Shown here: positions 17,547 through 37,842 of the stretch, in pieces | How the letters are laid out: each line of letters begins with the position of its first letter | Numbering within the stretch: position 1 is the first letter of the stretch | Origin: a virus | Lineage: Duplodnaviria; Heunggongvirae; Uroviricota; Caudoviricetes | Strand: one strand, 5' to 3' | DNA: 40,040 bases | IMG/VR virus record: IMGVR_UViG_2547132278_000009 | The notes under the pieces: model-generated | What the model saw: only the letters and a program-made list of their open reading frames with translations | What the model was told of the DNA's origin: nothing | The model's database searches: none | Translations under genes and position numbers: made by a program

Positions 17547-18803
17547 CTATCGAGAACCACCAAGAATAACACGGTTTTTGACTGGATACCTACGATGTAC
17601 TGGATAGCCCAATGCGTCTGCACTATGCTCAATGCCACCTGTCTTATCCATATCTCGTGTTCCAGGCTTGTAGATGACTTTTTCCAGTGAATCAATCAAA
17701 TGCTTGCACTTCGGATCGATATACAGCCGGATATCTCCAGATGCGGTCATCAGCATTCGGTTAACAGCATTAACACGATCCGCAATTGGCGGGTGCTTTT
17801 TCGAATAATCGACACGTAAGAATCCCTTCTCTTTGAATATGTCTACGTCAGACTCCCCACGAGCATGTTGGCGATAAGCACCTGCCGGATCTGGAAATAC
17901 CGTTACCTGTGATTTCCAGCGCCAGAAGCGTCTCTCAAGCTCATCACAAACTTCTGCCGTGTTAGAGGAAAAGAGCACCAATTCATCAATTGCCCATAGC
18001 TCACCATTTGGCTGAGGTTGCAAAATTACTGAAGACATCGGGTCAATGTTGAAGTCCTGCCCTACCCATATAGGCAACCGAGGGTTGAACTGAAGCGGTT
18101 TTACATGCACGTTACGATCGAACGGGTAGTAAACGCGCCCGGACATGTTCTCAAAGCTGGCCAGGTACTCCTGAGCGAACGATTTGGGGTCCATATCGTT
18201 CTTAGCAGCTTCAATTTCCGCCGTAGGTACAAACGGAGAATCGGCAGTTACAAACTGCCAGCTCTTCCACTGTCCCTTTCTTTGCAGCTCTACGTTCTGG
18301 CCTATAGTCCACAGTTTGTGAAATTCCGAGAAGCCTTTTGGCGTACCAATGATCAGTGCACCGCCGCGTGTCGATGAAAGAGTAGGTCGTAACACCTTGT
18401 ACCAGGTGTCAGCCTTCATATCCTGAAATTCATCAAGCACTACAAAATGCAACGCTACGCCGCGCAGAGTGTCAGGCTTATCAGCACCTTTGAGGGCGAT
18501 CTCCGAACCGTTCTTCAACACGATTGTCATCGTGGTGTCGTTCTTTTTCCTAACCCACTTACGAGGCAGAACTTCCTGTAGATCGTCCCACAAAATCTGG
18601 CGAGCCATCTGGTAAGTAGGAGCGACATACCAGACCCTTTGCTTTTTTTCCTTTGCCGCCGCACGAATAATAGTGGAGATCGACAACCGGGATTTTCCCC
18701 AGCGTCGACCAGCACAAACAACTTTAAATCGATGCGGAGACTGGAAGACTTTCATCTGTCCAGAATGCAGTTGCACAAGACTGAGCGAGGACGGGATTGC
18801 CAT
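17547..18803 (-). CDS. Terminase large subunit
   Basis: 418 aa; Walker A CAGRRWGKS, Walker B VVLDEFQD, C-terminal nuclease-like region; start overlaps stop of the small subunit gene. Confidence 0.85.
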   Translation of the reverse strand: MAIPSSLSLVQLHSGQMKVFQSPHRFKVVCAGRRWGKSRLSISTIIRAAAKEKKQRVWYVAPTYQMARQILWDDLQEVLPRKWVRKKNDTTMTIVLKNGSEIALKGADKPDTLRGVALHFVVLDEFQDMKADTWYKVLRPTLSSTRGGALIIGTPKGFSEFHKLWTIGQNVELQRKGQWKSWQFVTADSPFVPTAEIEAAKNDMDPKSFAQEYLASFENMSGRVYYPFDRNVHVKPLQFNPRLPIWVGQDFNIDPMSSVILQPQPNGELWAIDELVLFSSNTAEVCDELERRFWRWKSQVTVFPDPAGAYRQHARGESDVDIFKEKGFLRVDYSKKHPPIADRVNAVNRMLMTASGDIRLYIDPKCKHLIDSLEKVIYKPGTRDMDKTGGIEHSADALGYPVHRRYPVKNRVILGGSR

Positions 18804-19435
18804 TATTCGTCCTCCCCTTCACTTCCATCATCTGTCGCATCAAATTCGCTTAGAGCTTCTTCTTCCAACGTCTCAAGCAATTCGTCATCGATGATTTCAG
18901 GCTCGTCGTCTTCCTGACGTAATTTCGCCACCTGGGAAGGCGTAAGCTCACCAAATACCAGGTTCGGAATTTCTTCCTCGTCATTTTCCGCATGATCCAT
19001 GCCCAATGCTTTGGACGAAACTTCAAAGCATTTTGCAAGGGTATTACTGGCTCTCTGTAAGCTCTTGAGAGAATCCTCAATCGCCCCTAAAGGCTTACCC
19101 TCACGTTTGGCCGTAGTGACTTCGACCATCACCATCTGCCCCAACGCATACGCCCAGCCGTCATAACGTGTACGACGTTCTTCTATCTTTTCCGCACGGG
19201 CTTTAGCGCGAAGCTCTGCGTCAGATTTAAGAGACTCACGAACCATCTTCCCAACAGAGTCCGCGCCTTTCTCTAATCCTCGCTTTTTGAAATGTCTGGA
19301 GAGTGTTTCACGACGAATGCCGTACTCTTCCTCCAGCTTTGAGAGTGTATATTCGCCTGACGTCCATTTGGCTTCAGCTTCGGCCCACTCCGCTGGTGTC
19401 AGGCGAGTTTTTACCTCGTCTTTTTCGACCGTCAT
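18803..19435 (-). CDS. Terminase small subunit (candidate)
   Basis: 210 aa, N-terminal HTH-like region, very acidic C-terminus; directly upstream of the large subunit. Confidence 0.6.
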   Translation of the reverse strand: MTVEKDEVKTRLTPAEWAEAEAKWTSGEYTLSKLEEEYGIRRETLSRHFKKRGLEKGADSVGKMVRESLKSDAELRAKARAEKIEERRTRYDGWAYALGQMVMVEVTTAKREGKPLGAIEDSLKSLQRASNTLAKCFEVSSKALGMDHAENDEEEIPNLVFGELTPSQVAKLRQEDDEPEIIDDELLETLEEEALSEFDATDDGSEGEDE

Positions 19436-19474
19436 AGATCCCTCTAAAACACACAGAGCGCGTCCATGCGCTCT

Positions 19475-19517
19475 AAAACAACTTGTTTACTGCATCTGCT
19501 AACCAACTTGTTTTCTG
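19475..19517 (-). promoter_or_regulatory. Two copies of the palindromic operator family (AAAACAA-N-TTGTTT) upstream of the terminase small subunit gene
   Basis: AAAACAACTTGTTTAC (19475-19490) and AACCAACTTGTTTTCTG (19501-19517), with adjacent inverted repeat AGAGCGC-N6-GCGCTCT. Confidence 0.45.
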
Positions 19518-19630
19518 GGGTGTTTAATTAGATCTGGCATGTCTTACGAAGCCTGCTTCCGTATATATTTAATAAGTTACTTATTATTTATATATATAGA
19601 TGCAGGTCTTTAAATAAGCTCCCAGACCGA

Positions 19631-19897
19631 TTACATCACCAGTAACTTCGCTTTGGCTCGACCTAAAGTGGTTAACCCAAGAGTTCGGCGGTGATAGCGA
19701 TTGTCACTGCGTTGGCGCGTATGCCCTTTCTCCACCAGCCCCTTTTTTATCAGAGCGCGAATTGAGAACTGGATACTTTGCTTGGTTGTCTTGTACGGCA
19801 AAACTTCAAGCAATTCGTCCAGATCAAGTAGATGACCTCGCTCATAACCGAGATTGAGCGTTTTGATTATGTCCTTTTGTTTGTCGGTTAACGTCAT
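19631..19897 (-). CDS. Small basic protein, possibly winged-helix DNA binding
   Basis: 88-aa ORF 9 bp downstream of the GNAT-like gene; basic C-terminus; no firm motif. Confidence 0.35.
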   Translation of the reverse strand: MTLTDKQKDIIKTLNLGYERGHLLDLDELLEVLPYKTTKQSIQFSIRALIKKGLVEKGHTRQRSDNRYHRRTLGLTTLGRAKAKLLVM

Positions 19898-19906
19898 GGC
19901 AAATCC

Positions 19907-20797
19907 TTATGCCGGTAAAGCAATTTCTAACGGTTTATCCAAAGGTTGTTTGTCGAATGCCAGCAGTGGCAGCGTGTCAGGCAGTCGACGGCCAAAGTCA
20001 GGGTTTCGGTACACACCATACAACGGAGACGTAAAGCTCAGGTTGTGAATGTCCTTGAGCAGCTTCACAATGCTGGCCTCGTCCACCAGACTGTCGGCAA
20101 TGTCCTGAATCGTCGTGCCACGATTCCGCCCAGCTTTTGCCAGAGAACTGTTCTTGTGGTAGTCCGCCACCAAATCGCGCAGCGCACGGCGACGACGAGA
20201 CTCGCTCATAGCGAACAACTCTTTGACGATCGCCTCGTTATCACCCGGGTCGGAGCGGAAATGGCGCTGGAACACACGCAGTGCACTTTCATAGCTCTTC
20301 GGTCGCTCAGGGCGGATGAACTTAAACCCTGCTTTCATGGCGAAGGGATTGTATTTGCTCATCGAGGACTGGATCTCAATGATTGGCCGGTCATGCATCC
20401 TGCTAACCAGGTTAATCATTCGATAAGAGACGCCTACGCCACGATACTGAGTATCCACAACTGAGCGACTGATCACCGCAAAGTTGTTATTCACGTACCG
20501 ACCCCAGTACTGGTTAGCCACGGTGGTATTAGTGGTTGGTTTCAACTTAGGAAACATGCGGTGGCGAGGTGCCAACAGTAGTTTCGGGTAAGCCATAACC
20601 ACGACGCCCACCAGACGGTCATCAAGTTCGCAGCGATAGTAAGTTGGCGCGAAAGGTTTGCCGTCTGTTTTGTAGTGAAGCGACTTAAGAGCGTGCCAGT
20701 CCTCTACAGTTCCCTTTGTAACAGTCATTCGCTCCAGAAAGTCCAGATGACGCGGAAACTCTTCAGGGCGGTAGCGTTTAATGATGATGTCCGTCAT
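19907..20797 (-). CDS. GNAT-like acyltransferase-fold protein with extra C-terminal domain (hypothetical)
   Basis: 296 aa; YRGVGVSYRMINLV resembles GNAT motif A (R/Q-x-x-G-x-G/A); start overlaps the ATPase stop by 4 nt. Confidence 0.4.
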   Translation of the reverse strand: MTDIIIKRYRPEEFPRHLDFLERMTVTKGTVEDWHALKSLHYKTDGKPFAPTYYRCELDDRLVGVVVMAYPKLLLAPRHRMFPKLKPTTNTTVANQYWGRYVNNNFAVISRSVVDTQYRGVGVSYRMINLVSRMHDRPIIEIQSSMSKYNPFAMKAGFKFIRPERPKSYESALRVFQRHFRSDPGDNEAIVKELFAMSESRRRRALRDLVADYHKNSSLAKAGRNRGTTIQDIADSLVDEASIVKLLKDIHNLSFTSPLYGVYRNPDFGRRLPDTLPLLAFDKQPLDKPLEIALPA

Positions 20798-21459
20798 GAA
20801 TGGACCTCATCATGACTACCATTGTGATATTCCACCTTCACGCGTTCTTTGTAGTGCTTGGTGATCTGCATATCCGGGCGCAGCGCGTTCTTCAGGTCTT
20901 CGTGAGTCGTCGCCACCATTACCGTCGCACCAACCTTTCGAGCGGCACGCTGGAGGTTAGACGCCACAACCTGAGCGGTTACACGGTCGAGAACAGCGCC
21001 GAACTCGTCAGCAGCCCATACTTTAGCGCCTGACTCAATCAGTTTGGCAATCTTGAGACGATATTTCTGGCCGTCTGACATTTCAGAAGGCTTGCGAACA
21101 AACAGATATGCATCGTTCAGACCAGCCATAGATAACAACCCAAGCGCATCACTGGTCGTTTTGCCCAACTGATCGATGACGTTAACCTCATTATCGAAGG
21201 TAAAATCATCGATGGAGGCTACAGAAAGCCCTTCATCCTTCATCTGGCGTTGCAACTCGCGCAGCACAACGGATTTGCCGGAACCGGATTGGCCGGTGAT
21301 GTACACCACATCGCCCTGCTTCACTTCCAGCTCCAGATTGTCGTAAAGCGTCCACTCTTTTTCGTCCAGGCCAAGCCCGAACGACTCAGCGATTTCCAAC
21401 GTGCGCGTGGTTTTATTTACGCGTGTCTGAAACGATACGTTGATGATGTATTTGCTCAT
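20794..21459 (-). CDS. Minimal ABC-type ATPase (stand-alone nucleotide-binding domain)
   Basis: 221 aa; Walker A GQSGSGKS, signature-like SDGQKYRL, Walker B VWAADEFGAVLD, H-loop ATTHEDL; overlaps both neighbours by 4 nt. Confidence 0.7.
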   Translation of the reverse strand: MSKYIINVSFQTRVNKTTRTLEIAESFGLGLDEKEWTLYDNLELEVKQGDVVYITGQSGSGKSVVLRELQRQMKDEGLSVASIDDFTFDNEVNVIDQLGKTTSDALGLLSMAGLNDAYLFVRKPSEMSDGQKYRLKIAKLIESGAKVWAADEFGAVLDRVTAQVVASNLQRAARKVGATVMVATTHEDLKNALRPDMQITKHYKERVKVEYHNGSHDEVHS

Positions 21460-22124
21460 GCAGCCATCTCCCCGGAAGAGATCTTCTCCGCATATGCCAC
21501 AAATGCGTCTACCCCGCTTTCTCCCGTCATTTCTTCCATGTGGGCAAGCAAATCACCAACAACAATGGCAGAGCCAGCAGGGAGCGTTTTAAAGCCCAAT
21601 ACGTCGACAACACGTACTTCTTCCGCTGCAACTTCACGACTGATCTCGGTGTGTTCATCCTTCTGTCGTTTAGTTTCTTCGCCAAGATCGATAACTAGCG
21701 AATCGGTGTCCATTTCTTCTGTCATACTGCCAACGAGAACATTCAACTCACGCTCTTCAAAGCCGAAAACCTCGATATCGTCCAGAACAAGCGACTCAAG
21801 CTCTTTCTGTAGCTTAATTGCATCGTAATCAATGCTGGCAAGTCGGTTATCTTCAAGGCGCTTCGCACGAACCTCGTCATCACTGAGATCATCGCGAACA
21901 ATAACCGGTACGCGCTCAAGTCCAGCAAAAATTGCAGCCTCACGGCGGCCGTGGCCAGTAATAATTACGTCGTTCTTATCGACCGTAATTGGCTGGTCAA
22001 ATCCGCGCTTTTTAATGGCTGCGGCCAGATCTCGGATCTGCTGTTCATCATGCTTTTTGGCATTCATCTCATAGGGAATAAGATCTGCCGGGTCGCGATA
22101 TACGATTTCAAACTTTTTGGTCAT
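21456..22124 (-). CDS. ParB/Srx-like N-terminal domain protein (second of two)
   Basis: ITGHGRREAAIFAG matches the ParB arginine motif (GxxRxxA); probable start MTKKF overlapping the upstream stop as TAATG. Confidence 0.65.
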   Translation of the reverse strand: MTKKFEIVYRDPADLIPYEMNAKKHDEQQIRDLAAAIKKRGFDQPITVDKNDVIITGHGRREAAIFAGLERVPVIVRDDLSDDEVRAKRLEDNRLASIDYDAIKLQKELESLVLDDIEVFGFEERELNVLVGSMTEEMDTDSLVIDLGEETKRQKDEHTEISREVAAEEVRVVDVLGFKTLPAGSAIVVGDLLAHMEEMTGESGVDAFVAYAEKISSGEMAA

Positions 22125-22822
22125 TACATACGCTCCTTGTAGTAGTCGACCAGCCACACCAGAGCCTCACCAGCGTTCTCCATTTCATTACCGGTGTTAA
22201 TAGCCTGCTCTTTGATGATGTTTTTTATGGTTTCTGCAACACGATCTGACGCATCGAAAGTTACTTTGAAGCGCATGGTCTGATGTTCCGCACCCACACG
22301 TTCGGTTTTCTCTCGTTTGTCGGTATCGACAGGCTCATCACTACCACGAGACAACGCCTCCAGTGCTTCAAGGTCGATTGCCGCCTCTTTTGCTAAAACC
22401 ATCGAGATTTCGTCGTCATACGGGGCGATTTCAGACAGTTGATAGTCAAGTTCTGACTGAATTTCTTCAATGAAGCGTTGCAATGCGATTTGGTCGTCTT
22501 CACCGTATCGCTCGTTGTCCACCAGTGACATCTGTTTAGCTACGACATCGCTAATTTTGCCCACAGAAAGCACCGGAACCGTTGAAATTCCTTGCTCAAT
22601 AGCAGCACGCCAGCGATGTTCGCCGCCGAGGATTTCAAAAAATCCATCTTCAAGTTCACGAGCCAAAATTGGCTTAAAAAAGCCCAATTTTTCGATAGAA
22701 CCTTTCAGTTTTTCAAAATTCTGCGCACCAACCGAATTGGTGTTCCAGGTATTCGGGCGAAGGTTGGCAACATCAACCTGCAAAATCGTGATTTTTACAT
22801 CCATTTTATTGCTACAATCCAC
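22124..22822 (-). CDS. ParB/Srx-like N-terminal domain protein (first of two)
   Basis: ILGGEHRWRAAIEQG matches the ParB arginine motif; first gene of the operon, divergent from the helicase. Confidence 0.7.
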   Translation of the reverse strand: MDCSNKMDVKITILQVDVANLRPNTWNTNSVGAQNFEKLKGSIEKLGFFKPILARELEDGFFEILGGEHRWRAAIEQGISTVPVLSVGKISDVVAKQMSLVDNERYGEDDQIALQRFIEEIQSELDYQLSEIAPYDDEISMVLAKEAAIDLEALEALSRGSDEPVDTDKREKTERVGAEHQTMRFKVTFDASDRVAETIKNIIKEQAINTGNEMENAGEALVWLVDYYKERM

Positions 22823-25218: not shown

Positions 25219-25747
25219 TGACATGACAACCAAAGATATTACCTACGGTATCCAAGCTGAACTCTGGCCGCGAGATTACACTAACGTTGAAAAACTACTG
25301 ATGTTCTGGCGCAGAGAACAAATTCCTGTAAGGGTCACTCTCGAAGATGGCCAGGCGTTTTGCATGTACGTTTATGGCCTCATGCCATCTCGTAACAAAG
25401 TTGACCTTTGCCCAGCCCCTTTTGACAAAGAAAATCGTATAAGGCTCCCACTTGAACGCATTAGTACAATTGAATCAGGTGTGGTTGACAGTATCGCTCA
25501 CGATTTCAAAGGTCGACTAACAGTTCACCCTGATTATGTCGATAATCGGCCATCACGCCGCGATTTTTTTGCAATTTGCAACCAAGCCTACAAAGCAAAC
25601 AAATCTATAAGGGTGTACATGGCGGATGGCCGTGAAATTGAGGGGGTGTCAGCAGGCGCAGATGCTTGTCAGGTTACACTACGTGTCGAGAACGGTAGAA
25701 AAATAGTTGTTTTGTTCGATTGGGTTGAACGAATTTTGCCTTTTTGA
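25214..25747 (+). CDS. Hypothetical protein with apparent internal duplication
   Basis: ORF 25145..25747; likely start MTTKDITYG overlapping the lipoprotein stop; two similar segments (IPVRVTLEDGQAFCMYVYG / IRVYMADGREIEGVSAG). Confidence 0.45.
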   Translation, partial: CDDMTTKDITYGIQAELWPRDYTNVEKLLMFWRREQIPVRVTLEDGQAFCMYVYGLMPSRNKVDLCPAPFDKENRIRLPLERISTIESGVVDSIAHDFKGRLTVHPDYVDNRPSRRDFFAICNQAYKANKSIRVYMADGREIEGVSAGADACQVTLRVENGRKIVVLFDWVERILPF

Positions 25748-27497: not shown

Positions 27498-27502
27498 AAT
27501 CG

Positions 27503-27530
27503 AGCGCCCACTATGGGCGCTTTTTTCGTT
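27503..27530 (+). terminator. Rho-independent terminator (hairpin copy 2 plus T6)
   Basis: AGCGCCCA-CTA-TGGGCGCT followed by TTTTTTCG. Confidence 0.7.
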
Positions 27531-27547
27531 TCCAATACTCCCACCAT

Positions 27548-27577
27548 AACGCGCCAATGATGGCGCGTTTTTTATTG
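27548..27577 (+). terminator. Second tandem rho-independent terminator
   Basis: GCGCCA-ATGATG-GCGCG followed by TTTTTTATT. Confidence 0.6.
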
Positions 27578-27986
27578 TCTTTGATTCACTCCAACAACAT
27601 AAAAACAAGCGCCAAAATAACGCCATAGACGCACTTTTATATCCTTACCAGTACATACCCATTACTTAACACATTAACGCGCTTAAAACGCGTTATATTG
27701 CGCTATAGCGCATAATTAATCATTGGCTTTTAGTCTTGCTATGTGATCCGCGTTTAATTGTCGGCGCGGATCGGCATTTTGTTTTGTTCCGTATCCGCTC
27801 GCGTATTATGTGCGCGTGATTTTCACATAATCACACCACTTAATCACGTATGTGATTATGCTACGAAAGAAATCTGGATGTCTCAGGCGACGAAAGTCAT
27901 CATAATTTTCCCCGCTCACCTGTCCGACAACCGCTGGTTGGATTCCACCAGCTTCCCGATGTTTTTTCTACATAAAGGCGAATGCA

Positions 27987-28099
27987 GCCGTTTCCCGAAA
28001 AAATCCTGGCCGTTTCCCGTCGGCTCATGAATACGTTCCTCGCCGTTTCTGAAAATTTCCCTGCGGCAGCTGGTGTCTATAGAGAAAGGGCCGTTTCTG
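27987..28099. repeat. Iteron-like direct repeat array A (GCCGTTTCC/GCCGTTTCTG, 4 copies)
   Basis: GCCGTTTCCC at 27987 and 28009 (22 bp apart), GCCGTTTCTG at 28042 and 28090. Confidence 0.6.
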
Positions 28100-28112
28100 G
28101 CCCTCTTCTCAG

Positions 28113-28595
28113 TTACACGCCATCAAGGATGTGGATGCGGTTGCTTGCGTATACATTCAGCATAAAGTTAGCGCAAAACAGTTTCCATGTATCAACGCCA
28201 GCGGCATACGTAATGTTTTTGCATTTTATTGCATTGTTGGCGATCCGCATCCCCTGTGATACTGCTTCATCGTCGGAAAATTTGAACGACGATTGAGTTT
28301 TAATCCAGACAGAAATCTGCGTAGCGAACTCAATCAGCTTGGACTGGCAGAATCGCCCGGAGCGCACCGGAAAGACGAACGTTCCGAATCCAGAATTTAC
28401 CACATACGCTTTCTCAAATACCCGCGAGTAACGACGATTGCCAATGATGTCGCGTGCAATAATGCATTTTTCTTGTGCTGACAGTTCTACCGTCTCATTG
28501 TCGCGCCATGCACCAAGTACTCGTTTTTCAATGTCAGAGAACGTTACAGCGATATTGCCATGTGCGGGTGCGTTTACAGTAGCGATAAAATTCAT
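28113..28595 (-). CDS. Hypothetical protein (160 aa)
   Basis: ORF with GGAAT RBS-like and the palindromic operator 20-40 bp upstream; no motif recognised. Confidence 0.5.
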   Translation of the reverse strand: MNFIATVNAPAHGNIAVTFSDIEKRVLGAWRDNETVELSAQEKCIIARDIIGNRRYSRVFEKAYVVNSGFGTFVFPVRSGRFCQSKLIEFATQISVWIKTQSSFKFSDDEAVSQGMRIANNAIKCKNITYAAGVDTWKLFCANFMLNVYASNRIHILDGV

Positions 28596-28612
28596 GATTA
28601 ATTCCTTATCGT

Positions 28613-28632
28613 AAATAACAAATTGTTTTCTT
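28613..28632 (-). promoter_or_regulatory. Palindromic operator copy (AACAAATTGTT core) upstream of the 160-aa gene
   Basis: AATAACAAATTGTTTTCTTG read directly; flanking TTAATTAACACCAACAAG block is shared with the site at 31143. Confidence 0.45.
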
Positions 28633-28797
28633 GTTGGTGTTAATTATCGTTGTACGAATAAGGCGTCAAAGTGGAAAGTTGCGGTAGCCGGACGGGAACA
28701 GGTGGGTTTGTCGGTTGCCTGGAGGTAAGAGGTTGGTGTTATTAGCCTGAGGGAAACAGGATGGTCATTTAAGACCACCAATGCTGGTGGCCTTAAT

Positions 28798-28943
28798 AAT
28801 TATCGCACGATTACGCTAAGGATCTTTTCCTCAACTGATTTGTTGTTGCGACTAAACTGCCTTGCGTATCTGATGACAGAAGAGGCGTTTTGCTTTCTGA
28901 CCATCTCGGCTCTTTCCTTCAGGCGTTTCTTGAAATCGCCCAT
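28798..28943 (-). CDS. Possible small basic protein (48 aa), below the ORF-track cutoff
   Basis: Hand translation MGDFKKRLKERAEMVRKQNASSVIRYARQFSRNNKSVEEKILSVIVR; ATG 2 nt after the upstream stop with GGTGG upstream. Confidence 0.3.
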
Positions 28944-28945
28944 AT

Positions 28946-29320
28946 TTACCACCAGGCGCAGAAGGTCAGTCTGTTATTGTGAAAGTCGTGGTTCTTAATC
29001 AGGTCTTCCACAAGCTCTTTCAACTGCCCCACATCATGCCAGTAACCTTCATCGTACTCCTGACTGCCGAAGAAAAAACCTTCCCGGGTAGGCAAGTACT
29101 CTTCGCAATTACTTTCGTTTATGTGCATCAAATGAGCCTTCAGAAAACAAATGTCATTCATCGTTAATTCTAAAAGCTCACAATTTTCGACTTCACCTAC
29201 GTTGCGCTCCATCCACCCAACGAGCGCATTGAACTTACGGAAGTAAGCAACCTGCTTTCTGGATGCCTCGTTATTCAGATCGTTTTTAGGCTGTGTCTCG
29301 ATATAGATATCAAGTCCCAT
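28946..29320 (-). CDS. Hypothetical acidic protein (about 124 aa)
   Basis: ORF 28946..29362; probable start MGLDIYIETQ; operator copy and hairpin upstream. Confidence 0.5.
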   Translation of the reverse strand: MGLDIYIETQPKNDLNNEASRKQVAYFRKFNALVGWMERNVGEVENCELLELTMNDICFLKAHLMHINESNCEEYLPTREGFFFGSQEYDEGYWHDVGQLKELVEDLIKNHDFHNNRLTFCAWW

Positions 29321-29375
29321 GATGGTTTCCTTATTAACTTGCTTCAGTGAAATCATTTTCACAAATCAGATAAGG

Positions 29376-29395
29376 CAGAAAACAAATTGTTATCG
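29376..29395 (-). promoter_or_regulatory. Palindromic operator copy upstream of the acidic 124-aa gene
   Basis: CAGAAAACAAATTGTTATCG; adjacent hairpin GGCGCG-N6-GCGCC likely terminator of the upstream gene. Confidence 0.45.
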
Positions 29396-29437
29396 GGCTT
29401 AATAAAATGGCGCGGTTTACGCGCCATTTAAAGAGGA

Positions 29438-29833
29438 TTAAGCGAATACGCTTTCAGGGATTAAGGTGTCGGCAGGAATGCCAGAGGTAATGCGCAGGCC
29501 GTACTGACCAATCCAGGTAGTGTTGGTATTCAGGCTGGAGGCGAATACGGTGTTAACCATATTCATCATGGTTTCAAACACCTCTTCATCAACCTGGCGG
29601 AAGTAGTTCTCGATTTTCAGCAGCAGCGGGTCAGTTGCATCGAGAATGGACTGGTATTGAGTCGCGTACTCGCCGCCGGAGGCATCACCTTTACGCACGA
29701 TCGTACTGGCCTGGACTTCGGCACCAGTTTCGGTGTTGTACGTAACAACGGTGATTTTTGCCACATTCTTACCTTCGGCGGTTTCAGAGGCATAGTAAAC
29801 ATCAACTGTCAGTTTTTCGCGTTTAACGGTCAT
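29438..29833 (-). CDS. Hypothetical protein (131 aa)
   Basis: ORF with GGAGAGTG RBS-like sequence upstream; no motif recognised. Confidence 0.5.
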   Translation of the reverse strand: MTVKREKLTVDVYYASETAEGKNVAKITVVTYNTETGAEVQASTIVRKGDASGGEYATQYQSILDATDPLLLKIENYFRQVDEEVFETMMNMVNTVFASSLNTNTTWIGQYGLRITSGIPADTLIPESVFA

Positions 29834-29959
29834 TTCACTCTCCGTAGTGTATTGGTTATTTTTCTATTCTATGATCGTAAGTATGTACTTACAATACAAA
29901 AAAGCCCCGTAAGGATGGCGGGGCTGTCGTACTGTCGACTAATTGCCACTTGCACATTA

Positions 29960-30271
29960 TCAGGCTATTGCCATCACTGATGCTCTCTGAATCTCTTGCT
30001 GGGCCACGCGGTTAACTTCCATCAAAGCCAGTTCGAGCTGATGTTCCGGCCACATTCTTTGAAATGCCACCCAGCCTTTTCCACGCTGGCGACGAACATT
30101 CATTACATAACGAGTAAAGGTGTTTTTATCGAAAGACACCGCTGTTTCACGGAACAGACGAATAGAGGTTCCATTGGCAACGATGTCCAGCAAAGTTAAT
30201 TGAGCAACCAGCGCAGGCTTCTCTTTTCTCTTCTGGTCTTTGTCCAGACCAAGAACCAATGATTTTTTCAT
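29960..30271 (-). CDS. Hypothetical basic protein (103 aa), possible DNA-binding protein
   Basis: ORF 29960..30301; start MKKSLVLG at 30271 with GGAG RBS; K/R-rich. Confidence 0.5.
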   Translation of the reverse strand: MKKSLVLGLDKDQKRKEKPALVAQLTLLDIVANGTSIRLFRETAVSFDKNTFTRYVMNVRRQRGKGWVAFQRMWPEHQLELALMEVNRVAQQEIQRASVMAIA

Positions 30272-30280
30272 TACAACTCC

Positions 30281-30299
30281 GTAAACAACTTGTTTTCTC
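30281..30299 (-). promoter_or_regulatory. Palindromic operator copy (GAAAACAA-G-TTGTTTAC) in the 5' leader of the basic-protein gene
   Basis: Read directly; lies within a ~60-bp module duplicated at 30765-30840. Confidence 0.5.
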
Positions 30300-30424
30300 A
30301 ATGGCGTAAATAATACCAGTAAGAAAACGGCTACAAAGCATATTGATCAGGCGCATGAGCGATATGCAGGTTCTTCCCTGCGGCTATAGAGAAATTAAGC
30401 CAGCAATGCTGGCTTTGGTTGGGG

Positions 30425-30754
30425 TTACTCGAATACTTCAAGAAACTCCTGAACGTCCCAATGCTGGACAAGGTGAAGATAGACCTTAGAAATAACGTCA
30501 TTCTCGCTATCGCATGTGAAGTAGAACTTCTGGCTGCGGTTGTATGTGTCCACACAAAATTCGCTCATATCCATAAAGTCAGCATCATCACCCAGGTCGC
30601 AAATCATCAAAGCAGGAGCATCATCACGAGTCATCAGCTCAAGCACCCAGCGCGAATTGATCAGCGTGGAAGACCAACCTTCTAACTCATAAAACTGGTC
30701 AAACTCTTTTTGAGTCATTTTCTTGATTTGGTTGATGTCGATATTTGCAAACAT
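30425..30754 (-). CDS. Hypothetical acidic protein (about 109 aa)
   Basis: ORF 30425..30820; start MFANIDINQ at 30754 with AAGGAT RBS; net acidic, D/E-rich. Confidence 0.5.
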   Translation of the reverse strand: MFANIDINQIKKMTQKEFDQFYELEGWSSTLINSRWVLELMTRDDAPALMICDLGDDADFMDMSEFCVDTYNRSQKFYFTCDSENDVISKVYLHLVQHWDVQEFLEVFE

Positions 30755-30764
30755 AACGCAATCC

Positions 30765-30783
30765 TTAAACATGTTGTTTTCTG
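30765..30783 (-). promoter_or_regulatory. Palindromic operator copy (GAAAACAA-C-ATGTTTAA) upstream of the acidic 109-aa gene
   Basis: Read directly; part of duplicated promoter module. Confidence 0.5.
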
Positions 30784-30892
30784 AATTGCGTAAACAATAC
30801 CAGTAAGAAAACGGCCACAAAGTATATCGTTACGGTGCTGCGCTGCCCGGAGGTTAATAGCGACAAAAGCCACCGTGCTGGTGGCCTCACTC

Positions 30893-31111
30893 TTAATCTT
30901 CGTCGCCCGGGAACTCGCTGTGTACCGCGTCCACCAGCTCCCGCTTTTCATCTTCACTCAGCAGGTGCCAGATATCCTTCCCTTTGGGCGATTCCCCTTC
31001 TGCCGGGACGAACGACCACAACTTGCGGTACAACTCCGGCCCCACTGCATCCAGACACTCAGCCAGGGATTCCACGCCCCACACCTCAACCGTCACAGGC
31101 ATCTTAATCAT
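30893..31111 (-). CDS. Hypothetical small acidic protein (72 aa)
   Basis: ORF with GAGGATGAAGAG RBS-like leader; acidic C-terminus EFPGDED. Confidence 0.45.
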   Translation of the reverse strand: MIKMPVTVEVWGVESLAECLDAVGPELYRKLWSFVPAEGESPKGKDIWHLLSEDEKRELVDAVHSEFPGDED

Positions 31112-31142
31112 CTCTTCATCCTCACTTCGTTTATATAACGTC

Positions 31143-31159
31143 TAAACATGTTGTTTACT
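31143..31159 (-). promoter_or_regulatory. Palindromic operator copy upstream of the 72-aa gene
   Basis: TAAACATGTTGTTTACT with the same flanking TTAATAACACCAACAAG block as the site at 28613. Confidence 0.45.
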
Positions 31160-31491
31160 TGTTGGTGTTATTAACGCAATAAGACAAAGGCGAAAAAGGA
31201 TTTTATTCCGGTGAATGTGGTTTTGGCAGTGAGTTTTCAGGTTCAGTACCGAGTACACTTTTTACATTATTCTGATTTAGTGGCCGAAAGTGGCTGGTGG
31301 CAGAGTAATCCTCTCCCCAAAAACCTACTGAAATCGATTGTGCCCCGTTGGCTGTCTGGCACAATTACGCTGTAGCTGGGCATTCAGAGGGAATCCAGCG
31401 GTAAGCAAGCCCGCCTACGTGAGCGCCTCTCTTCTTCCCGCACATTACAGGTGGGTAGCCGCAACTCTCCCTCTCGCTATACCGGTACGCC

Positions 31492-31622
31492 GCCGTTCCT
31501 GAACCGGCATCGAGCCTTTTCCCGAAATCCACACAGGCAACTCGACCGTTTCCCTGAAAATCCCCAGCCGTTCCCCGAAGGCAACCCAGCCGTTTCTGTA
31601 GCGGGATGCAACCTTTTCCCTG
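31492..31622. repeat. Iteron-like direct repeat array B (6 copies of G/A-CCGTTTCC-type units at about 22-bp spacing)
   Basis: Units begin at about 31492, 31514, 31545, 31567, 31589, 31610; several followed by GAAA. Confidence 0.65.
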
Positions 31623-31699
31623 TATGGACCGAAGACTGACCGTAGGGGTGTTACGGGGGGATAAAATCAGGAGTTGAATAAATACGAAAAAGGAGGCGA

Positions 31700-32600
31700 C
31701 ACCCCTCCTTCCCTCCCCACTTATACATACCTGGCTTCTTCGCTATACATGTTGTGTTTTATCTGTCTCAACCTCTCTATAGGCGTTAATGCTCACTCCT
31801 TCCAGAATGTTCTATACGGCGACTATTTCTGTTGGTGAATTGGGTGTGTTGTTTTCTCTGTCGGTGTATGTGGTTTCGTTCGTTTTGCGGTGGTTCTTCT
31901 ATGGGGTGTTCTCGTCGTTTTGGTGATTGTTCTTCTCCGTGTATGGAGTAATGGCAGGTGGGCGATTGCTTTCGTTATTGTGTTTGAGTTGTTTGTCTGG
32001 AGTGTGTGAAAGGCTTTTGTAGTTATTCGTGTATTGGGTAATGGCGTTTCCCGTGATTGTTATGTTTCGTGTCTTTTGGGATTGAGAGAAACCTTGCGGT
32101 TATAGGCTTCGTTGGGTTTTCAGTGATTCTGGTGTTTCTTCGCTGTTTGGGGAATGGCGTGTCGTGGGTATTGCGCGTATGAATGTTTTCGGATTGCCTG
32201 TGAAAGTTAGGTTGGCTGTCCGGTAGCCTGGGGAGAAGAGGTGGGTCTTTTCGGTAGCCTGCCATAAAGAGGTTGGTTGTTTTTGGGAATGGCATTTGTG
32301 TTATTTAGTTGTTTTGTTATGCCTGAAAATAAGTTGTTTATATGGTTGTGTAACGCAACGGGAGCGATTTTGAGCGTGTGTTTTTGTTGGTAGTGTGTTG
32401 GGTCGTCTGTGGTGAAAATTGGACGCTGTGGCGCTGTCTGCTGCGTAGAATTACGGGTATAAGAAGTGATGTGTGAAAACGTCAATTTTTTAGACCAAAT
32501 CGGGTGAAAGCGTTGATGTTTCGTTGATCTGTTATTCAGTTGTTTTCTTGATTGTATAAACAACTATAACTTATTGATATTTAAGGATGTGATTGCGGGT
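31700..32600. other. About 0.9 kb ORF-free tract with extreme G+T richness on the plus strand
   Basis: Long runs of G/T-only words; recurring GG(G/T)AATGGC units near 31951, 32037, 32143, 32287; only low-complexity ORFs. Confidence 0.6.
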
Positions 32601-32682
32601 ATGGAAAGGGAGTAGTGGCGATCAACGGATTCTTATAGAAAAGAATCAAATTGTGACCGCCATTATCAATGAGTTGCAACCG

Positions 32683-33937: not shown

Positions 33938-34007
33938 CAAAACAATTTGTTTTCTTATGTGGCTTATTATCTCAATCAACAAAAGGTAGAAAACAAATTG
34001 TTTTAGG
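33938..34007 (-). promoter_or_regulatory. Two perfect or near-perfect copies of the 17-bp palindromic operator
   Basis: CAAAACAATTTGTTTTC (33938-33954) and GAAAACAAATTGTTTTA (33991-34007), just downstream of the metG terminator. Confidence 0.5.
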
Positions 34008-34087: not shown

Positions 34088-36121
34088 TTACTTAACCTGA
34101 TGGCCTGGTTTAGCACCGGCATCCGGGCTTAACAGGAAGATATCTTTCCCGCCGGGGCCAGCAGCCATCACCATGCCTTCAGAGATACCGAAGCGCATTT
34201 TACGCGGAGCCAGGTTAGCCACCATAATGGTGTGACGACCAATCAGTGCCTGTGGATCTGGATAAGCGGAACGGATGCCTGAGAAGACATTACGCTTTTC
34301 ACCACCGAGATCCAGCGTCAGGCGCAGCAGTTTGTCAGAACCTTCGACAAACTCCGCGTTTTCAATCAGCGCCACACGCAGGTCAACTTTGGCGAAGTCG
34401 TCAAAGGTGATGGTTTCCTGAATCGGGTCGTCAGCCAGTGGGCCAGTTACCGGTGCAGCTGTGGCTTTCACTTCTTCTTTGGATGCTTCCACCAGTGCTT
34501 CCACCTGTTTCATATCGATACGGTTATACAGTGCCTTGAACGGATTCACTTTATGGCCCAGCAGCGGTTGCTGGATACCATCCCAGGTCAGTTCTGTATT
34601 CAGGAATGCTTCTGCACGTTCAGTCAGTTTCGGCAGTACCGGTTTCAGGTACGTCATCAGCACGCGGAACAGGTTAATGCCCATAGAGCAAATCGCCTGC
34701 AGATCGGCATCGCGTCCTTCCTGCTTCGCCACCACCCACGGAGCCTGTTCATCGACATAGCGGTTAGCCAGATCAGCCAGCGCCATGATTTCACGAATCG
34801 CTTTACCAAATTCGCGGCTTTCCCATGCTTCACCAATCACTTCAGCGGCATCAGTAAAGGTTTTGTACAGTTGCGGGTCAGCCAGTTCGCCTGCCAGCAC
34901 ACCGTCAAAACGCTTATTGATAAAGCCCGCGTTACGGGACGCCAGATTCACCACTTTGTTCACGATATCGGCATTCACGCGCTGAACGAAATCCTCCAGG
35001 TTGAGATCGATATCATCAATGCGCGAAGAGAGTTTCGCAGTGTAGTAGTAACGCAGGCTGTCAGCGTCAAAATGATTCAGCCAGGTGCTGGCTTTAATAA
35101 AGGTGCCGCGAGACTTGGACATCTTCGCACCGTTCACCGTCACATAGCCATGAACAAACAGGTTGGTCGGCTTGCGGAAGTTGCTGCCTTCCAGCATGGC
35201 AGGCCAGAACAGGCTGTGGAAGTAAACGATATCTTTACCGATGAAGTGGTACAGCTCGGCGGTGGAGTCTTTCTTCCAGTATTCGTCGAAGCTGGTAGTG
35301 TCGCCGCGTTTGTCGCACAGATTCTTGAAGGAACCCATGTAGCCAATCGGTGCGTCCAGCCAGACGTAGAAATATTTGCCCGGTGCGTTCGGAATTTCAA
35401 AACCGAAGTACGGCGCATCGCGGGAGATATCCCACTGTTGCAGGCCAGATTCAAACCACTCCTGCATTTTGTTTGCCACCTGCTCCTGCAACGCACCGCT
35501 GCGGGTCCATGCCTGCAACATTTCGCTGAAAGAGGGCAGATCAAAGAAGAAGTGTTCGGAATCACGCATTACCGGCGTAGCACCAGAAACTACCGATTTC
35601 GGCTCGATCAGTTCAGTCGGGCTGTAAGTCGCGCCGCAGACTTCACAGTTATCGCCGTATTGATCTGGCGCTTTACATTTAGGACAGGTGCCTTTTACAA
35701 AACGGTCCGGCAGGAACATGCCTTTTTCCGGGTCGTACAACTGAGAGATAGTGCGGTTTTTAATAAAACCGTTCTCTTTCAGGCGAGTATAGATAAGCTC
35801 AGACAACTGACGGTTCTCTTCGCTGTGCGTCGAGTGATAGTTGTCATAGCTGATGTTAAAGCCTGCGAAATCAGTCTGATGTTCCTGACTCATTTCGCCA
35901 ATCATCTGCTCCGGTGTGATACCAAGCTGCTGTGCTTTCAGCATGATCGGCGTACCGTGGGCATCGTCGGCACAGATGAAATTAACCTCGTGGCCGCGCA
36001 TTCGCTGGTAACGAACCCAGACATCAGCCTGGATGTGCTCCAGCATATGGCCGAGGTGGATTGAGCCGTTAGCGTACGGCAGCGCGCACGTCACCAGAAT
36101 TTTCTTCGCGACTTGGGTCAT
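34088..36121 (-). CDS. metG: Methionyl-tRNA synthetase
   Basis: Near-identity to E. coli MetG as I recall it (start [36 protein letters not shown] motif present); ORF-track N-terminal extension discarded. Confidence 0.97.
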
Positions 36122-36278
36122 AGTAGGCATTACTTCTTTGTAGTGAAAAGGGGCTTGATAGTAACAAAATGGCCTTATGTCTGCCATGTGATAACAGCAT
36201 TTCTCATAAATGATTAAATGTCGTAGCTGGAGTACACTACAAGGCGACAATTGCGCAAATTAAAATAAAGGAGACGGG

Positions 36279-37379: not shown

Positions 37380-37383
37380 TAAA

Positions 37384-37405
37384 AAGGCGGTGCATTGCAC
37401 CGCCT
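37384..37405. terminator. Bidirectional terminator between mrp and the UmuD-like gene
   Basis: AGGCGGTGCA-TT-GCACCGCCT stem-loop flanked by A/T runs. Confidence 0.6.
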
Positions 37406-37416
37406 AATCAGTTCTC

Positions 37417-37806
37417 CTACATCACGGGACAATCATCAAACTCGCCACTTCTTGCGTCGTTGATAATGTGAGTGATCACACCAAACACGGCATTGCTGCC
37501 CGTGCATCCATCGTCATCCTTTGGCAATGCTTCCTTCTTACCGGTTCTTAAATCCTCCAGATGCTGACGTGGATACTTCCGGTATCTTTTTACGCGATAT
37601 TCCCCATCCAGAGCGCATACAAGCAGAGAACCATCAACCGGGGTAAGTGAGGAATCGACCACCAGCAATGCACCCTGTAATATTCCCTCACGATGATGAC
37701 TATCAGCTGCCCTCATGAAGTAGGTCGCTGAAGGATGTCTAATTATCTGCTGATCAAGAGAAATACGGCTCTCAGCATAATCCGCCGCAGGAGAAGGGAA
37801 GCCCAT
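37417..37806 (-). CDS. UmuD-like S24 peptidase-family protein, without an adjacent umuC
   Basis: 129 aa; GFPSPAADY..., HPSATYF and GVITH match E. coli UmuD; Ser and Lys of the S24 dyad appear present (DSH..., VKR). Confidence 0.8.
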   Translation of the reverse strand: MGFPSPAADYAESRISLDQQIIRHPSATYFMRAADSHHREGILQGALLVVDSSLTPVDGSLLVCALDGEYRVKRYRKYPRQHLEDLRTGKKEALPKDDDGCTGSNAVFGVITHIINDARSGEFDDCPVM

Positions 37807-37822
37807 AATACTCGCCTCTTAA

Positions 37823-37842
37823 TACTGTATACACATACAGTA
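37823..37842. promoter_or_regulatory. LexA (SOS) box
   Basis: TACTGTATACACATACAGTA, i.e. CTGT-N8-ACAG, 17 bp upstream of the UmuD-like start codon. Confidence 0.85.

What the first reader, a model, noticed from the sequence alone, without database searches (positions are those of the whole stretch)
27987..28099. Iteron-like array A (GCCGTTTCC repeats) next to GC-rich palindromes
Four direct repeats of GCCGTTTC(C/T), two of them exactly 22 bp apart, lie downstream of a cluster of palindromes (GCGCTATAGCGC, CATAATCACA/TGTGATTATG, GATCCGCG...CGCGGATC at about 27690-27870). Direct repeats at helical-turn spacing are characteristic of replication-origin iterons, partition centromeres, or terminase small-subunit recognition sites.
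Basis: partly seen in the sequence, partly recalled or inferred. Interest (0 to 1): 0.55.

Follow-up and report, generated by a model that had tools for sequence, protein, structure and literature searches.

The report
Conserved two-part iteron array, binder unknown
The repeats are real: they are the smaller half of a conserved pair of protein-docking repeat arrays found in hundreds of SSU5/pMT1-type phage-plasmids, they are not the known plasmid replication origin, and their most likely (unproven) role is as a segregation (centromere-like) site.

Summary
The window is an E. coli SSU5-like phage-plasmid, 99.9% identical to pHH107-1. GCCGTTTCY occurs at 27987, 28009, 42 and 28090 as described: 5 copies in 40 kb against 0.76 expected.

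The first three copies, plus a degenerate fourth at 28053, are ~19-bp iterons (ACCCAGCCGTTTCCCGAAA) spaced at 22/33/11 bp.

A second array of six iterons lies 3.5 kb away (31487-31624), on the same strand. These nine sites are the only strong matches in the 110-kb element.

Both arrays keep the same core motif in Klebsiella, Salmonella SSU5 and Moellerella relatives. Y. pestis pMT1 keeps array A only. Iterons are 0.81-0.88 conserved; spacers are 0.48-0.59.

They are not the plasmid origin, because RepA has different iterons about 38 kb away. They are also not a structured RNA, not coding, and not next to terS.

Best guess (about 0.35): a remote, two-part centromere-like site for the type Ib ParA/RHH pair, which has no repeats beside its own operon. 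Rivals are a site for the ParB-like/wHTH/TerS module, a lytic origin, or operator arrays. The nearby palindromes are lineage-specific hairpins with no shown link.

The parts
27982..28000 (+). Iteron A1 (ATGCAGCCGTTTCCCGAAA; core CCGTTTC at 27988-27994)
   Evidence: PWM score 22.8 bits. Mean conservation 0.84 across 11 representative lineages. Present in all relatives examined.
28004..28022 (+). Iteron A2 (TCCTGGCCGTTTCCCGTCG), 22 bp after A1
   Evidence: PWM score 20.9 bits. Conservation 0.87. The A1-A2 spacing is 22 bp in nearly all of the 77 IMG/VR loci.
28037..28055 (+). Iteron A3 (TCCTCGCCGTTTCTGAAAA), 33 bp after A2
   Evidence: PWM score 20.1 bits. Conservation 0.81. It is degenerate in some Klebsiella lineages.
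28053..28075 (+). Degenerate iteron A4 (AAATTTCCCTGCGG) plus a conserved GCAGCTGGTG block. Most relatives carry an exact Chi site (GCTGGTGG) here; the window reads GCTGGTGT.
   Evidence: Conservation 0.88. The same position is a full CCGTTTCCCTGCGG in CP027615.1. Alignment.
28084..28110 (-). Intrinsic terminator of the minus-strand operon.
   Evidence: RNA fold dG -17.7 kcal/mol, z -3.6, followed by UUUCUCU. Both sides of the stem change together in relatives. It lies directly after the stop codon of the 160-aa gene at 28113.
31487..31624 (+). Array B: six iterons of the same family, with cores at 31493, 31515, 31546, 31568, 31590 and 31612 (spacing 22, 31, 22, 22, 22)
   Evidence: PWM scores 15.7-24.5 bits. 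Conserved as 4-6 copies in SSU5, Klebsiella and the IMG/VR loci, and as 2 copies in Moellerella.
31687..31713 (-). Minus-strand terminator lying just upstream, in the minus direction, of array B. The layout mirrors that at array A.
   Evidence: Terminator scan. RNA fold dG -16.7 kcal/mol, z -2.4.
28113..31108 (-). Cassette of small minus-strand genes of unknown function, bracketed by the two arrays. Its gene content varies between relatives.
   Evidence: Annotations differ between pHH107-1, Cyrano, SSU5 and the Klebsiella phages. The A-to-B distance ranges from 1.5 to 4.5 kb in 64 loci. All products fall in PHROGs of unknown function.
27502..27575 (+). Two tandem plus-strand intrinsic terminators that end the convergent plus-strand operon. 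They mark the left border of the 615-bp non-coding region holding array A.
   Evidence: dG -15.5 and -14.8 kcal/mol; z -4.8 and -4.4. Conservation 0.95 and 0.86.
27700..27860 (.). They are lineage-specific hairpins, and no link to the arrays was shown.
   Evidence: Presence confirmed. The 27744-27773 hairpin is terminator-like on the plus strand. Mean conservation of the zone is 0.57.
18803..22804 (-). Candidate binders encoded in the window: TerS with an N-terminal HTH (18803-19435), an 88-aa winged-helix protein (19631-19897), ParB_N protein 2 (21456-22124), and ParB_N protein 1 with an RHH-like tail (22124-22804). These are candidates only.
   Evidence: Family matches. The putative DNA-reading segments are conserved in the two most divergent lineages that keep the motif.

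Best explanation
**What it is.** Array A (27982-28075) is the smaller half of a two-part set of ~19-bp iterons, ACCCAGCCGTTTCCCGAAA, laid out in a 22-bp (two helical turn) register. The larger half, array B, lies at 31487-31624 on the same strand. Each array sits just after a minus-strand terminator. Together they bracket a variable cassette of small genes.

**How it most likely works.** The arrays are docking sites where several copies of one sequence-specific DNA-binding protein assemble side by side on one face of the helix. That much is well supported, at about 0.85.

**Most likely role (inferred).** A remote, two-part centromere-like site for plasmid-prophage segregation. The proposed binder is the 117-aa ribbon-helix-helix partner of the element's small type Ib ParA. 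That gene pair lies outside the window (pHH107-1 30920-31947) and has no repeat array of its own. Like the omega protein of pSM19035, the same complexes could also regulate the neighbouring transcription units.

**Shown versus inferred.** Shown: the repeat anatomy, its conservation, its uniqueness in the element, and what it is not. Inferred: the identity of the binder and the partition role.
For: **Anatomy and statistics.**. Nine sites score at least 15 bits, all in the two arrays; the next best site in 110 kb scores 12.4 bits or less.

**Conservation.**
- Both arrays, their orientation and the 22-bp spacing are kept in 77 IMG/VR loci, SSU5 and Klebsiella phage-plasmids.
- The same core motif survives in the divergent CP027615.1 and in a Moellerella element.
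- Array A occurs in 768 PLSDB plasmids of at least 10 genera and is never annotated.
- Iterons are 0.81-0.88 conserved against 0.48-0.59 for spacers.

**Not RNA.** Folding z-score is +0.2 on both strands and Rfam finds nothing.

**Orphan par system.**
- ParA (222 aa; NF041546, E 2e-33) and its 117-aa partner are identified.
- No repeats lie beside the operon.
- A scan of every intergenic region finds no iteron array comparable in copy number and register, other than the RepA iterons and arrays A and B.
- The partner's putative RHH strand, KSRTMSLEDEY, is almost unchanged in the two divergent lineages that keep the motif.
- The parA promoter carries a shared phage promoter-like element rather than a private operator.

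**Natural deletion.** A 62-kb E. albertii derivative lost TerS, the 88-aa protein, both ParB-like proteins and all virion genes. It keeps RepA, ParA with its partner (100% identical) and both arrays.

**Precedent (my own knowledge).** N15 has dispersed centromeres, and pSM19035 has several omega-binding parS arrays upstream of promoters.
Against: - Type Ib centromeres are normally adjacent to the par operon. Here they would be about 40 kb away.
- Y. pestis pMT1 has replaced the type Ib ParA pair with a P7-type ParAB and has lost array B, yet array A is still intact. This could simply be a young relic.
- The E. albertii deletion may also be too recent to be informative. Array A copy 1 carries a core mutation there.
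- Three other proteins have equally well conserved DNA-reading parts.
- In the most divergent lineages the spacing changes to 33-37 bp, so a strict 22-bp register is not essential.
- No binding, stability or incompatibility data exist.
Confidence: 0.35

Rival explanations
1. The arrays are recognition or loading sites for the conserved module next to the terminase genes. That module holds two ParB_N-domain proteins (one with a GEHRWRAA CTP-motif-like patch and an RHH-like tail), an ABC-type ATPase, a 296-aa protein, an 88-aa winged-helix protein and TerS. The arrays would then act either as ParB-type loading or boundary sites, or as a packaging (pac) recognition site.
For: - The module lies 5-9 kb from array A in the same window.
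- It is among the best conserved parts of the element: ABC 78-87%, 296-aa 76-80%, 88-aa 61-78%, ParB2 66-69%.
- The 88-aa recognition helix (TTKQSIQFSIRALIKKGLV), the TerS HTH (RRETLSRHFKKRG) and the ParB1 tail strand (MRFKV) are kept in all lineages that keep the motif.
- pMT1 keeps this module and array A but lacks the type Ib par pair.
- The half-site GTTTCCC resembles ParB/Noc-type half-sites. This comes from my own recall and is only a lead.
Against: - Both ParB-like proteins lack a recognisable ParB HTH. The region that aligns to it is acidic.
- parS sites are palindromes, not direct repeats.
- pac and cos sites normally lie in or beside terS, whereas array A is 8.5 kb away. The terS-proximal spacer has its own repeats and promoter-like elements.
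- The 62-kb E. albertii derivative keeps both arrays without any of these proteins. This is weak evidence.
Confidence: 0.2
2. The arrays belong to a second, RepA-independent origin. This would be the lytic origin, or an origin plus a distant cis-acting control element as in P4 ori/crr or P1 incC/incA. A phage initiator would bind the iterons and load the element's own DnaB-like helicase.
For: - The 19-bp units in a 22-bp register are the classical iteron geometry.
- There are two clusters on one strand, and array B lies in a 1.56-kb gene-free region with further repeats and IHF-like sites at its edge.
- The element encodes its own replisome, so it needs a lytic origin that nobody has mapped.
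Against: - No initiator-like gene lies beside either array. All neighbours are of unknown function, and several are absent from the Moellerella element, which keeps the motif.
- There is no DnaA box and no clear AT-rich unwinding region.
- The replication gene cluster is about 43 kb away and has its own AT-rich inverted-repeat spacer.
- GC skew shows no polarity switch here.
Confidence: 0.15
3. The arrays are purely transcriptional operator or insulator arrays. They would be bound by a phage regulator to control or isolate the variable accessory cassette and the neighbouring non-coding transcripts, with no role in DNA segregation, replication or packaging.
For: - Each array sits between a terminator and the next transcription unit, and the two bracket the cassette.
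- Array B lies 265-420 bp upstream of the only promoter-like site of the cassette operon.
- Weak minus-strand promoter-like sites lie downstream of array A.
Against: - The arrays lie unusually far from the predicted promoters.
- The predicted promoters are not conserved.
- The local regulators (FljA-like protein, 92-aa RHH, 103-aa and 71-aa proteins) are either absent from the Moellerella element or divergent in their DNA-reading parts, while the motif is unchanged.
Confidence: 0.15
4. The repeats have no function of their own. They would be chance repeats, remnants of duplication, a small coding region, or part of a structured RNA.
Against: - Strong enrichment over chance.
- Selective conservation of the iterons over their spacers, across genera.
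- The start codons of the overlapping ORFs are not conserved.
- RNA folding is no better than shuffled sequence, and Rfam is negative.
Confidence: 0.03

Closest known systems
Plasmid iterons of the P1 / RepFIB type (incC origin iterons plus incA control iterons flanking repA)
   Same: Units of about 19 bp as direct repeats in a register of about 22 bp. Two arrays on one strand flank a gene block.
   Different: The element's real RepFIB-type RepA has its own, unrelated iterons (GTATGCTGTCAGCGGT) 38 kb away. No rep gene, DnaA box or unwinding element lies next to arrays A or B.
Centromeres of RHH-type (type Ib/II) partition systems: R1 parC, pSK41 and TP228 parH, and the omega-binding parS arrays of pSM19035
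   Same: Phased direct repeats that bind many copies of a small protein. pSM19035 has several separate arrays that double as operators upstream of promoters. The element has a small ParA with an RHH-like partner and no centromere beside it.
   Different: The known examples lie in or next to the par operon. Here the arrays would be about 40 kb away, and the units are longer (19 bp) than most RHH sub-sites. Binding is untested.
Dispersed centromere sites of the phage-plasmid N15 (SopB-binding sites scattered over the genome)
   Same: It is a phage-plasmid whose partition sites lie away from the par genes, in several places among phage genes.
   Different: The N15 sites are single 16-bp palindromes for an HTH ParB (type Ia). 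Here the sites are arrays of direct repeats.
Satellite phage P4 ori / crr
   Same: Two clusters of the same short repeat lie a few kb apart, both bound by one protein.
   Different: In P4 the alpha initiator-helicase gene lies between them and both clusters are required for replication. No such initiator gene is seen here.
pac / cosB sites bound by small terminase (lambda R1-R3, SPP1 pacL/pacR, P1 pac)
   Same: Several repeats bound by an HTH protein, sometimes in two blocks.
   Different: Those sites lie in or beside the terminase genes. Here terS is 8.5 kb away, and no packaging-end data exist.

Membership tests
Iteron-type plasmid replication origin | Direct repeats of 17-22 bp in a register of about 22 bp | tested here: met
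   Core spacings are 22, 33 and 11 bp in array A, and 22, 31, 22, 22, 22 bp in array B. The unit is about 19 bp.
Iteron-type plasmid replication origin | Iterons adjacent to, and matching those of, the cognate rep gene | tested here: not met
   RepA lies at pHH107-1 109598-1095, flanked by 5 + 11 copies of GTATGCTGTCAGCGGT, an unrelated motif. No rep-like gene lies near arrays A or B.
Iteron-type plasmid replication origin | Neighbouring AT-rich unwinding element and DnaA boxes | tested here: not met
   No TTWTNCACA within 1.8 kb. G+C is 0.46-0.51 around array A.
Partition centromere of an RHH-type (type Ib) ParA system | Array of phased repeats able to bind many copies of the centromere-binding protein | tested here: met
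   3-4 plus 6 phased repeats, conserved across genera.
Partition centromere of an RHH-type (type Ib) ParA system | Location in or next to the parA-parB operon | tested here: not met
   The par operon is at pHH107-1 30920-31947 and the arrays are at 72.0 and 75.5 kb. No repeats flank the operon.
Partition centromere of an RHH-type (type Ib) ParA system | Specific binding by the partner protein, plasmid stabilisation, and centromere-mediated incompatibility | not testable with these tools
   This needs EMSA or ChIP plus stability and incompatibility assays. The only indirect support is conservation of the putative RHH strand.
ParB-parS (type Ia / chromosomal, CTP-dependent) | A roughly 16-bp palindromic parS read by the ParB HTH | tested here: not met
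   The sites are direct repeats, with only a partial GTTTC-CC-GAAAC dyad in some copies. ParB1 and ParB2 match ParB_N only, and the HTH-equivalent stretch is acidic.
Terminase small-subunit recognition site (pac / cosB) | Location in or beside the terminase genes, with DNA ends generated there | tested here: not met
   terS is at 18803-19435, 8.5 kb from array A. The ends of the phage records do not coincide with the arrays. True termini are not testable here.
Rho-independent terminator (only the copy at 28090) | G+C-rich hairpin followed by a U-tract directly after a stop codon, with the stem kept by paired changes | tested here: met
   dG -17.7 kcal/mol, z -3.6, tail UUUCUCU. The stem reads GGGCC/GGCCC here and GGGGC/GCCCC in relatives.
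Structured non-coding RNA | A fold more stable than shuffled sequence, or a match to an Rfam family | tested here: not met
   z +0.23 and +0.24 on the two strands. No Rfam hit at gathering score, and only sub-threshold hits on the neighbouring terminators.

The most novel reading that the evidence does not exclude
Arrays A and B are paired loading or boundary sites for the element's non-canonical ParB-like proteins. These have a ParB_N domain with a GEHRWRAA patch and an RHH-like tail, and no adjacent ParA. The proteins would load at direct-repeat iterons instead of a palindromic parS, bracket the hypervariable accessory-gene cassette, and couple its silencing or looping to maintenance of the plasmid prophage.
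Probability: 0.1. Interest if true: 0.7.

Novelty: new member of a known kind. Interest (0 to 1): 0.45.

Why it matters
SSU5/pHCM2/pKPHS1/pMT1-type phage-plasmids are common in E. coli, Klebsiella, Salmonella Typhi and Yersinia pestis, and they carry resistance and virulence genes. Apart from the RepA replicon, their cis-acting sites (centromere, lytic origin, packaging site) have not been mapped in anything I could find.

A strongly conserved, unannotated pair of iteron arrays is a concrete candidate for one of these sites. It occurs in 768 PLSDB plasmids. The four candidate binders named here make the question testable with simple binding, stability and incompatibility assays.

If the arrays prove to be the centromere, this would be a type Ib system with a remote, split centromere that brackets an accessory-gene hotspot.

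Tried and rejected
- **Known RNA families.** Rfam at gathering and at permissive thresholds found nothing on the arrays.
- **Structured RNA.** Single-sequence folds of the array are no better than shuffles. The alignment fold score comes from the terminator and small local hairpins.
- **Coding.** The overlapping ORFs (27982..28296 +, 27758..28030 +, 27900..28028 -) lose their start codons in Klebsiella relatives.
- **RepA origin.** RepA has a different iteron and sits elsewhere.
- **DnaA, IHF, composition and GC skew.** No origin-like signature.
- **FljA-like regulator as binder.**
  - It is PF03614, at 25223-25747.
  - The minus strand at iteron A2 shares 12 nt (TGAGCCGACGGG, 28016-28027) with the E. 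coli fliC 5' leader. I verified that leader in more than 2600 genomes.
  - The match is specific to the E. coli lineage.
  - The Moellerella element keeps the iterons without any FljA-like gene. I rejected it as the general binder.
- **Local small proteins as binder.** The 160-aa neighbour and the 71-aa and 103-aa proteins are absent from Moellerella or only 33-52% identical in CP027615.1. The beta-strand of the 92-aa RHH is not conserved.
- **Structure of the 160-aa protein.** Prediction without an alignment failed (pLDDT 40), so no fold search was run.
- **Homologue search for ParB1.** The 120 hits listed (of 243) were all 86-100% identical, too shallow for a useful model.
- **ParB/Noc half-site resemblance (GTTTCCC).** This is from my own recall. 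Both ParB-like proteins lack a recognisable HTH, so it stays a lead only.
- **Exact-pattern scan of 185,579 species genomes.** It gave mostly chance hits in unrelated G+C-rich genomes. Only Y. pestis pMT1 and Buttiauxella were real.
- **Divergent homologue of the par partner on a non-SSU5 plasmid (H108).** It is an IS-flanked remnant and uninformative.
- **Counts in E. coli genomes.** par genes 263, array A 238, array B 217. The counts are confounded by megablast sensitivity.
- **Literature searches.** Nothing was found on a centromere, lytic origin or pac site of this family. One paper reports iterons only downstream of repA in IncpKPHS1 plasmids (PMC6735626).

Full report
**Context.** The window is part of an SSU5-like phage-plasmid of E. 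coli.
- It is 99.9% identical to plasmid pHH107-1 (NZ_CP116406.1; window position = record position - 44023) and about 97.6% identical to phage Cyrano/pLF82.
- The finding lies in a 615-bp gene-free stretch (27498-28112) between two convergent units.
- On the left is a plus-strand operon: UvsW-like helicase, small proteins and an FljA-like regulator. It ends at 27497 with two strong tandem terminators.
- On the right is a minus-strand operon of small unknown genes whose last gene (160 aa) stops at 28113.

**Observation.**
- GCCGTTTCY occurs at 27987, 28009, 28042 and 28090, and once more at 31589. That is 5 matches against 0.76 expected, and no shuffle out of 100 reached 5.
  1. The copy at 28090 is the hairpin of the minus-strand terminator (dG -17.7 kcal/mol, z -3.6). 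Relatives keep the hairpin through changes on both sides of the stem and lose the 'GCCG'.
  2. A degenerate real member at 28053 (AAATTTCCCTGCGG) was missed. It is a full CCGTTTCCCTGCGG in a divergent relative.
  3. The unit is about 19 bp. A matrix built from 140 distinct copies gives ACCCAGCCGTTTCCCGAAA.
- Core-to-core spacings in array A are 22, 33 and 11 bp, all multiples of about one helical turn.

**The partner array.**
- The same motif forms a second, larger array 3.5 kb away, on the same strand. Six copies have cores at 31493, 31515, 31546, 31568, 31590 and 31612, spaced 22, 31, 22, 22, 22 bp.
- It lies in a 1.56-kb gene-free region.
- In the whole 110-kb element only nine sites score at least 15 bits, three in A and six in B. 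The next best site scores 12.4 bits or less.
- Each array lies just beyond a minus-strand terminator (28084-28110 and 31687-31713).
- Together the arrays bracket the minus-strand cassette 28113-31108. Its gene content differs between relatives, and the A-to-B distance ranges from 1.5 to 4.5 kb in 64 loci.

**Conservation.**
- Both arrays, their common orientation and the 22-bp spacing are kept in 77 IMG/VR loci, where the neighbouring 160-aa protein is 67-100% identical. They are also kept in Salmonella phage SSU5 and in Klebsiella phage-plasmids.
- Array A occurs in 768 PLSDB plasmids: Klebsiella 312, Escherichia 218, Enterobacter 91, Yersinia 55, Salmonella 48 and others. No record has a feature annotated there.
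- Among 11 representative lineages the iterons are 0.81-0.88 conserved. Spacers are 0.48-0.59, and the rest of the spacer region is 0.54-0.62.
- The core CCGTTTCCCGA(A) is unchanged in the divergent Klebsiella plasmid CP027615.1 and in a Moellerella (Morganellaceae) element. There the copy number falls to 2+2 or 2+3 and the spacing changes to 33-37 bp.
- This pattern is what a protein-binding site shows. It is not what a coding region or a structured RNA shows.

**What it is not.**
- It is not a known or structured RNA.
- It is not coding, because start codons are not conserved.
- It is not the plasmid origin. RepA lies about 38 kb away and is flanked by 5 + 11 copies of an unrelated iteron, GTATGCTGTCAGCGGT. 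This agrees with the report of iterons downstream of repA in IncpKPHS1 plasmids (PMC6735626).
- There is no DnaA box and no obvious unwinding element, and GC skew shows no switch here.
- It is not beside terS, which lies 8.5 kb away. The terS-proximal spacer has its own short repeats and promoter-like elements.
- The palindromes to the left are poorly conserved (0.57). One is a terminator-like hairpin on the plus strand. I found no link between them and the iterons.

**Who binds?** I used divergent relatives as natural experiments.
- The Moellerella element keeps the motif but has no detectable homologue of the 160-aa neighbour, the FljA-like regulator, or the 71-aa and 103-aa proteins. These are not the binder.
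- The 92-aa RHH-like protein has a non-conserved strand, so it is excluded too.
- Four proteins keep their putative DNA-reading parts in all three deep lineages:
  - the 117-aa RHH-like partner of a small type Ib ParA (outside the window; strand KSRTMSLEDEY)
  - an 88-aa winged-helix protein just upstream of terS (TTKQSIQFSIRALIKKGLV)
  - the TerS HTH (RRETLSRHFKKRG)
  - the RHH-like tail of ParB_N protein 1 (MRFKV...)
- Two defective derivatives point in opposite directions.
  - A 62-kb E. albertii plasmid lost the whole virion/terminase/ParB-like block. It keeps RepA, ParA with its partner, and both arrays.
  - Y. pestis pMT1 lost the type Ib par pair and array B. It keeps array A and the ParB-like/88-aa/TerS block.
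  - Both deletions may be too recent to be informative.

**Most likely mechanism.**
- The element carries a type Ib ParA with an RHH-like partner. There is no repeat array next to that operon.
- Its promoter carries a promoter-like element shared with other operons, rather than a private operator.
- Arrays A and B are the only iteron arrays of comparable copy number and register in the element besides the RepA iterons.
- By elimination, and by analogy with the dispersed centromeres of N15 and the multiple omega-binding arrays of pSM19035 (my own knowledge), I rank a remote, two-part centromere-like site first, at about 0.35. It might also act as an operator.
- The rivals are:
  - a site for the ParB-like/winged-helix/TerS module (0.2)
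  - a second or lytic origin or its control element (0.15)
  - purely regulatory arrays (0.15)
  - no function (0.03)
- That the arrays are cooperative protein-docking sites at all I hold at about 0.85.

**Novelty and verdict.**
- The repeat arrays are of a well-known kind: iterons or centromere repeats.
- This particular conserved pair appears undescribed in the literature I could search, and it is unannotated in every record examined.
- It is a new member of a known kind and of moderate interest. It offers a concrete handle on an unmapped cis-acting function of a clinically common phage-plasmid family.
The 'origin' option is excluded for the RepA replicon, the fourth repeat is reassigned to a terminator, and the palindromes are set aside.

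Noticed in passing
window 31109-32670: A 1.56-kb gene-free region. Besides array B it holds a G+T-rich stretch (about 31800-32450) with several repeat families, such as GGGTAATGGCG-like units, 31-nt units and CGGTAGCCTG x2. IHF-like sites lie at its right edge (32567, 32664). The same layout is seen in CP027615.1 and the Moellerella element. Its function is unknown.
   Followed up: partly
whole window (for example 27945-27952 on the minus strand, and 28783, 30877 and 31293 on the plus strand): Chi sites (GCTGGTGG) are strongly over-represented: 13 in 40 kb against 1.1 expected, and 26 in the whole 110-kb element, on both strands. Most relatives have an exact Chi at the right edge of array A (28068-28075), where the window reads GCTGGTGT.
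   Followed up: partly
window 28016-28027 (minus strand) and 25223-25747: The minus strand of iteron A2 shares 12 nt (TGAGCCGACGGG, followed by AAAC) with the E. coli fliC 5' leader. An FljA-like 'repressor of phase-1 flagellin' (PF03614, E 1.5e-84, with a weak Hfq-like tail) is encoded 2.3 kb away. The match is specific to the E. coli lineage, and the iterons persist in an element without the FljA-like gene. It is probably coincidence, but the phage-plasmid may well repress host flagellin.
   Followed up: partly
window 33940-33956 (minus strand), variants upstream of terS at about 19440-19520, and L007 about 31985-32000 upstream of parA: A recurrent promoter-proximal element, ATAAGAAAACAA[GC]TTGTTT (a partial dyad), lies upstream of parA, terS and several other operons. 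It is conserved upstream of parA in CP027615.1. It may be the operator or promoter of a global phage regulator.
   Followed up: partly
window 19436-19630: The spacer between the 88-aa winged-helix gene and terS holds TTTAATAAG-like repeats (about 19523, 19568 and 19610) and an AT-rich palindrome. It is a more conventional place for a packaging or late-promoter signal than array A.
   Followed up: no
window 19631-22804 (minus strand): A conserved operon lies upstream of terS. It encodes ParB_N protein 1 (GEHRWRAA patch, RHH-like tail), ParB_N/Srx protein 2, a 221-aa ABC-type ATPase, a 296-aa protein and an 88-aa winged-helix protein. No ParA is adjacent. It is 61-87% conserved even in the Moellerella element. 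Its role is unknown.
   Followed up: partly
window 27651-27665: A 15-nt block, GTACATACCCATTAC, is nearly invariant (0.91) inside otherwise poorly conserved spacer DNA. It lies between the plus-strand terminators and the palindromes. It could be a promoter or a protein site for an unannotated small transcript.
   Followed up: no
window about 34088-37200: The element carries a divergent metG - apbC(mrp) gene pair, arranged as on the E. coli chromosome. This looks like captured host cargo, and it is also present in the 62-kb E. albertii derivative.
   Followed up: no
L117 3600-4950; NC_017155.1 (L150) 36768-38543: In Y. pestis pMT1 the region right of the 160-aa gene is replaced by IS1541 (IS200-like) copies. 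Array B, the replication-gene block and the type Ib par pair are all missing, while array A is intact.
   Followed up: yes
L007 1094-1632 and L008 25593-25698 (pHH107-1, outside the window): The RepFIB-type RepA is flanked by 5 upstream and 11 downstream copies of GTATGCTGTCAGCGGT. This is a P1-like incC/incA layout and is the true plasmid origin and copy-control region.
   Followed up: yes
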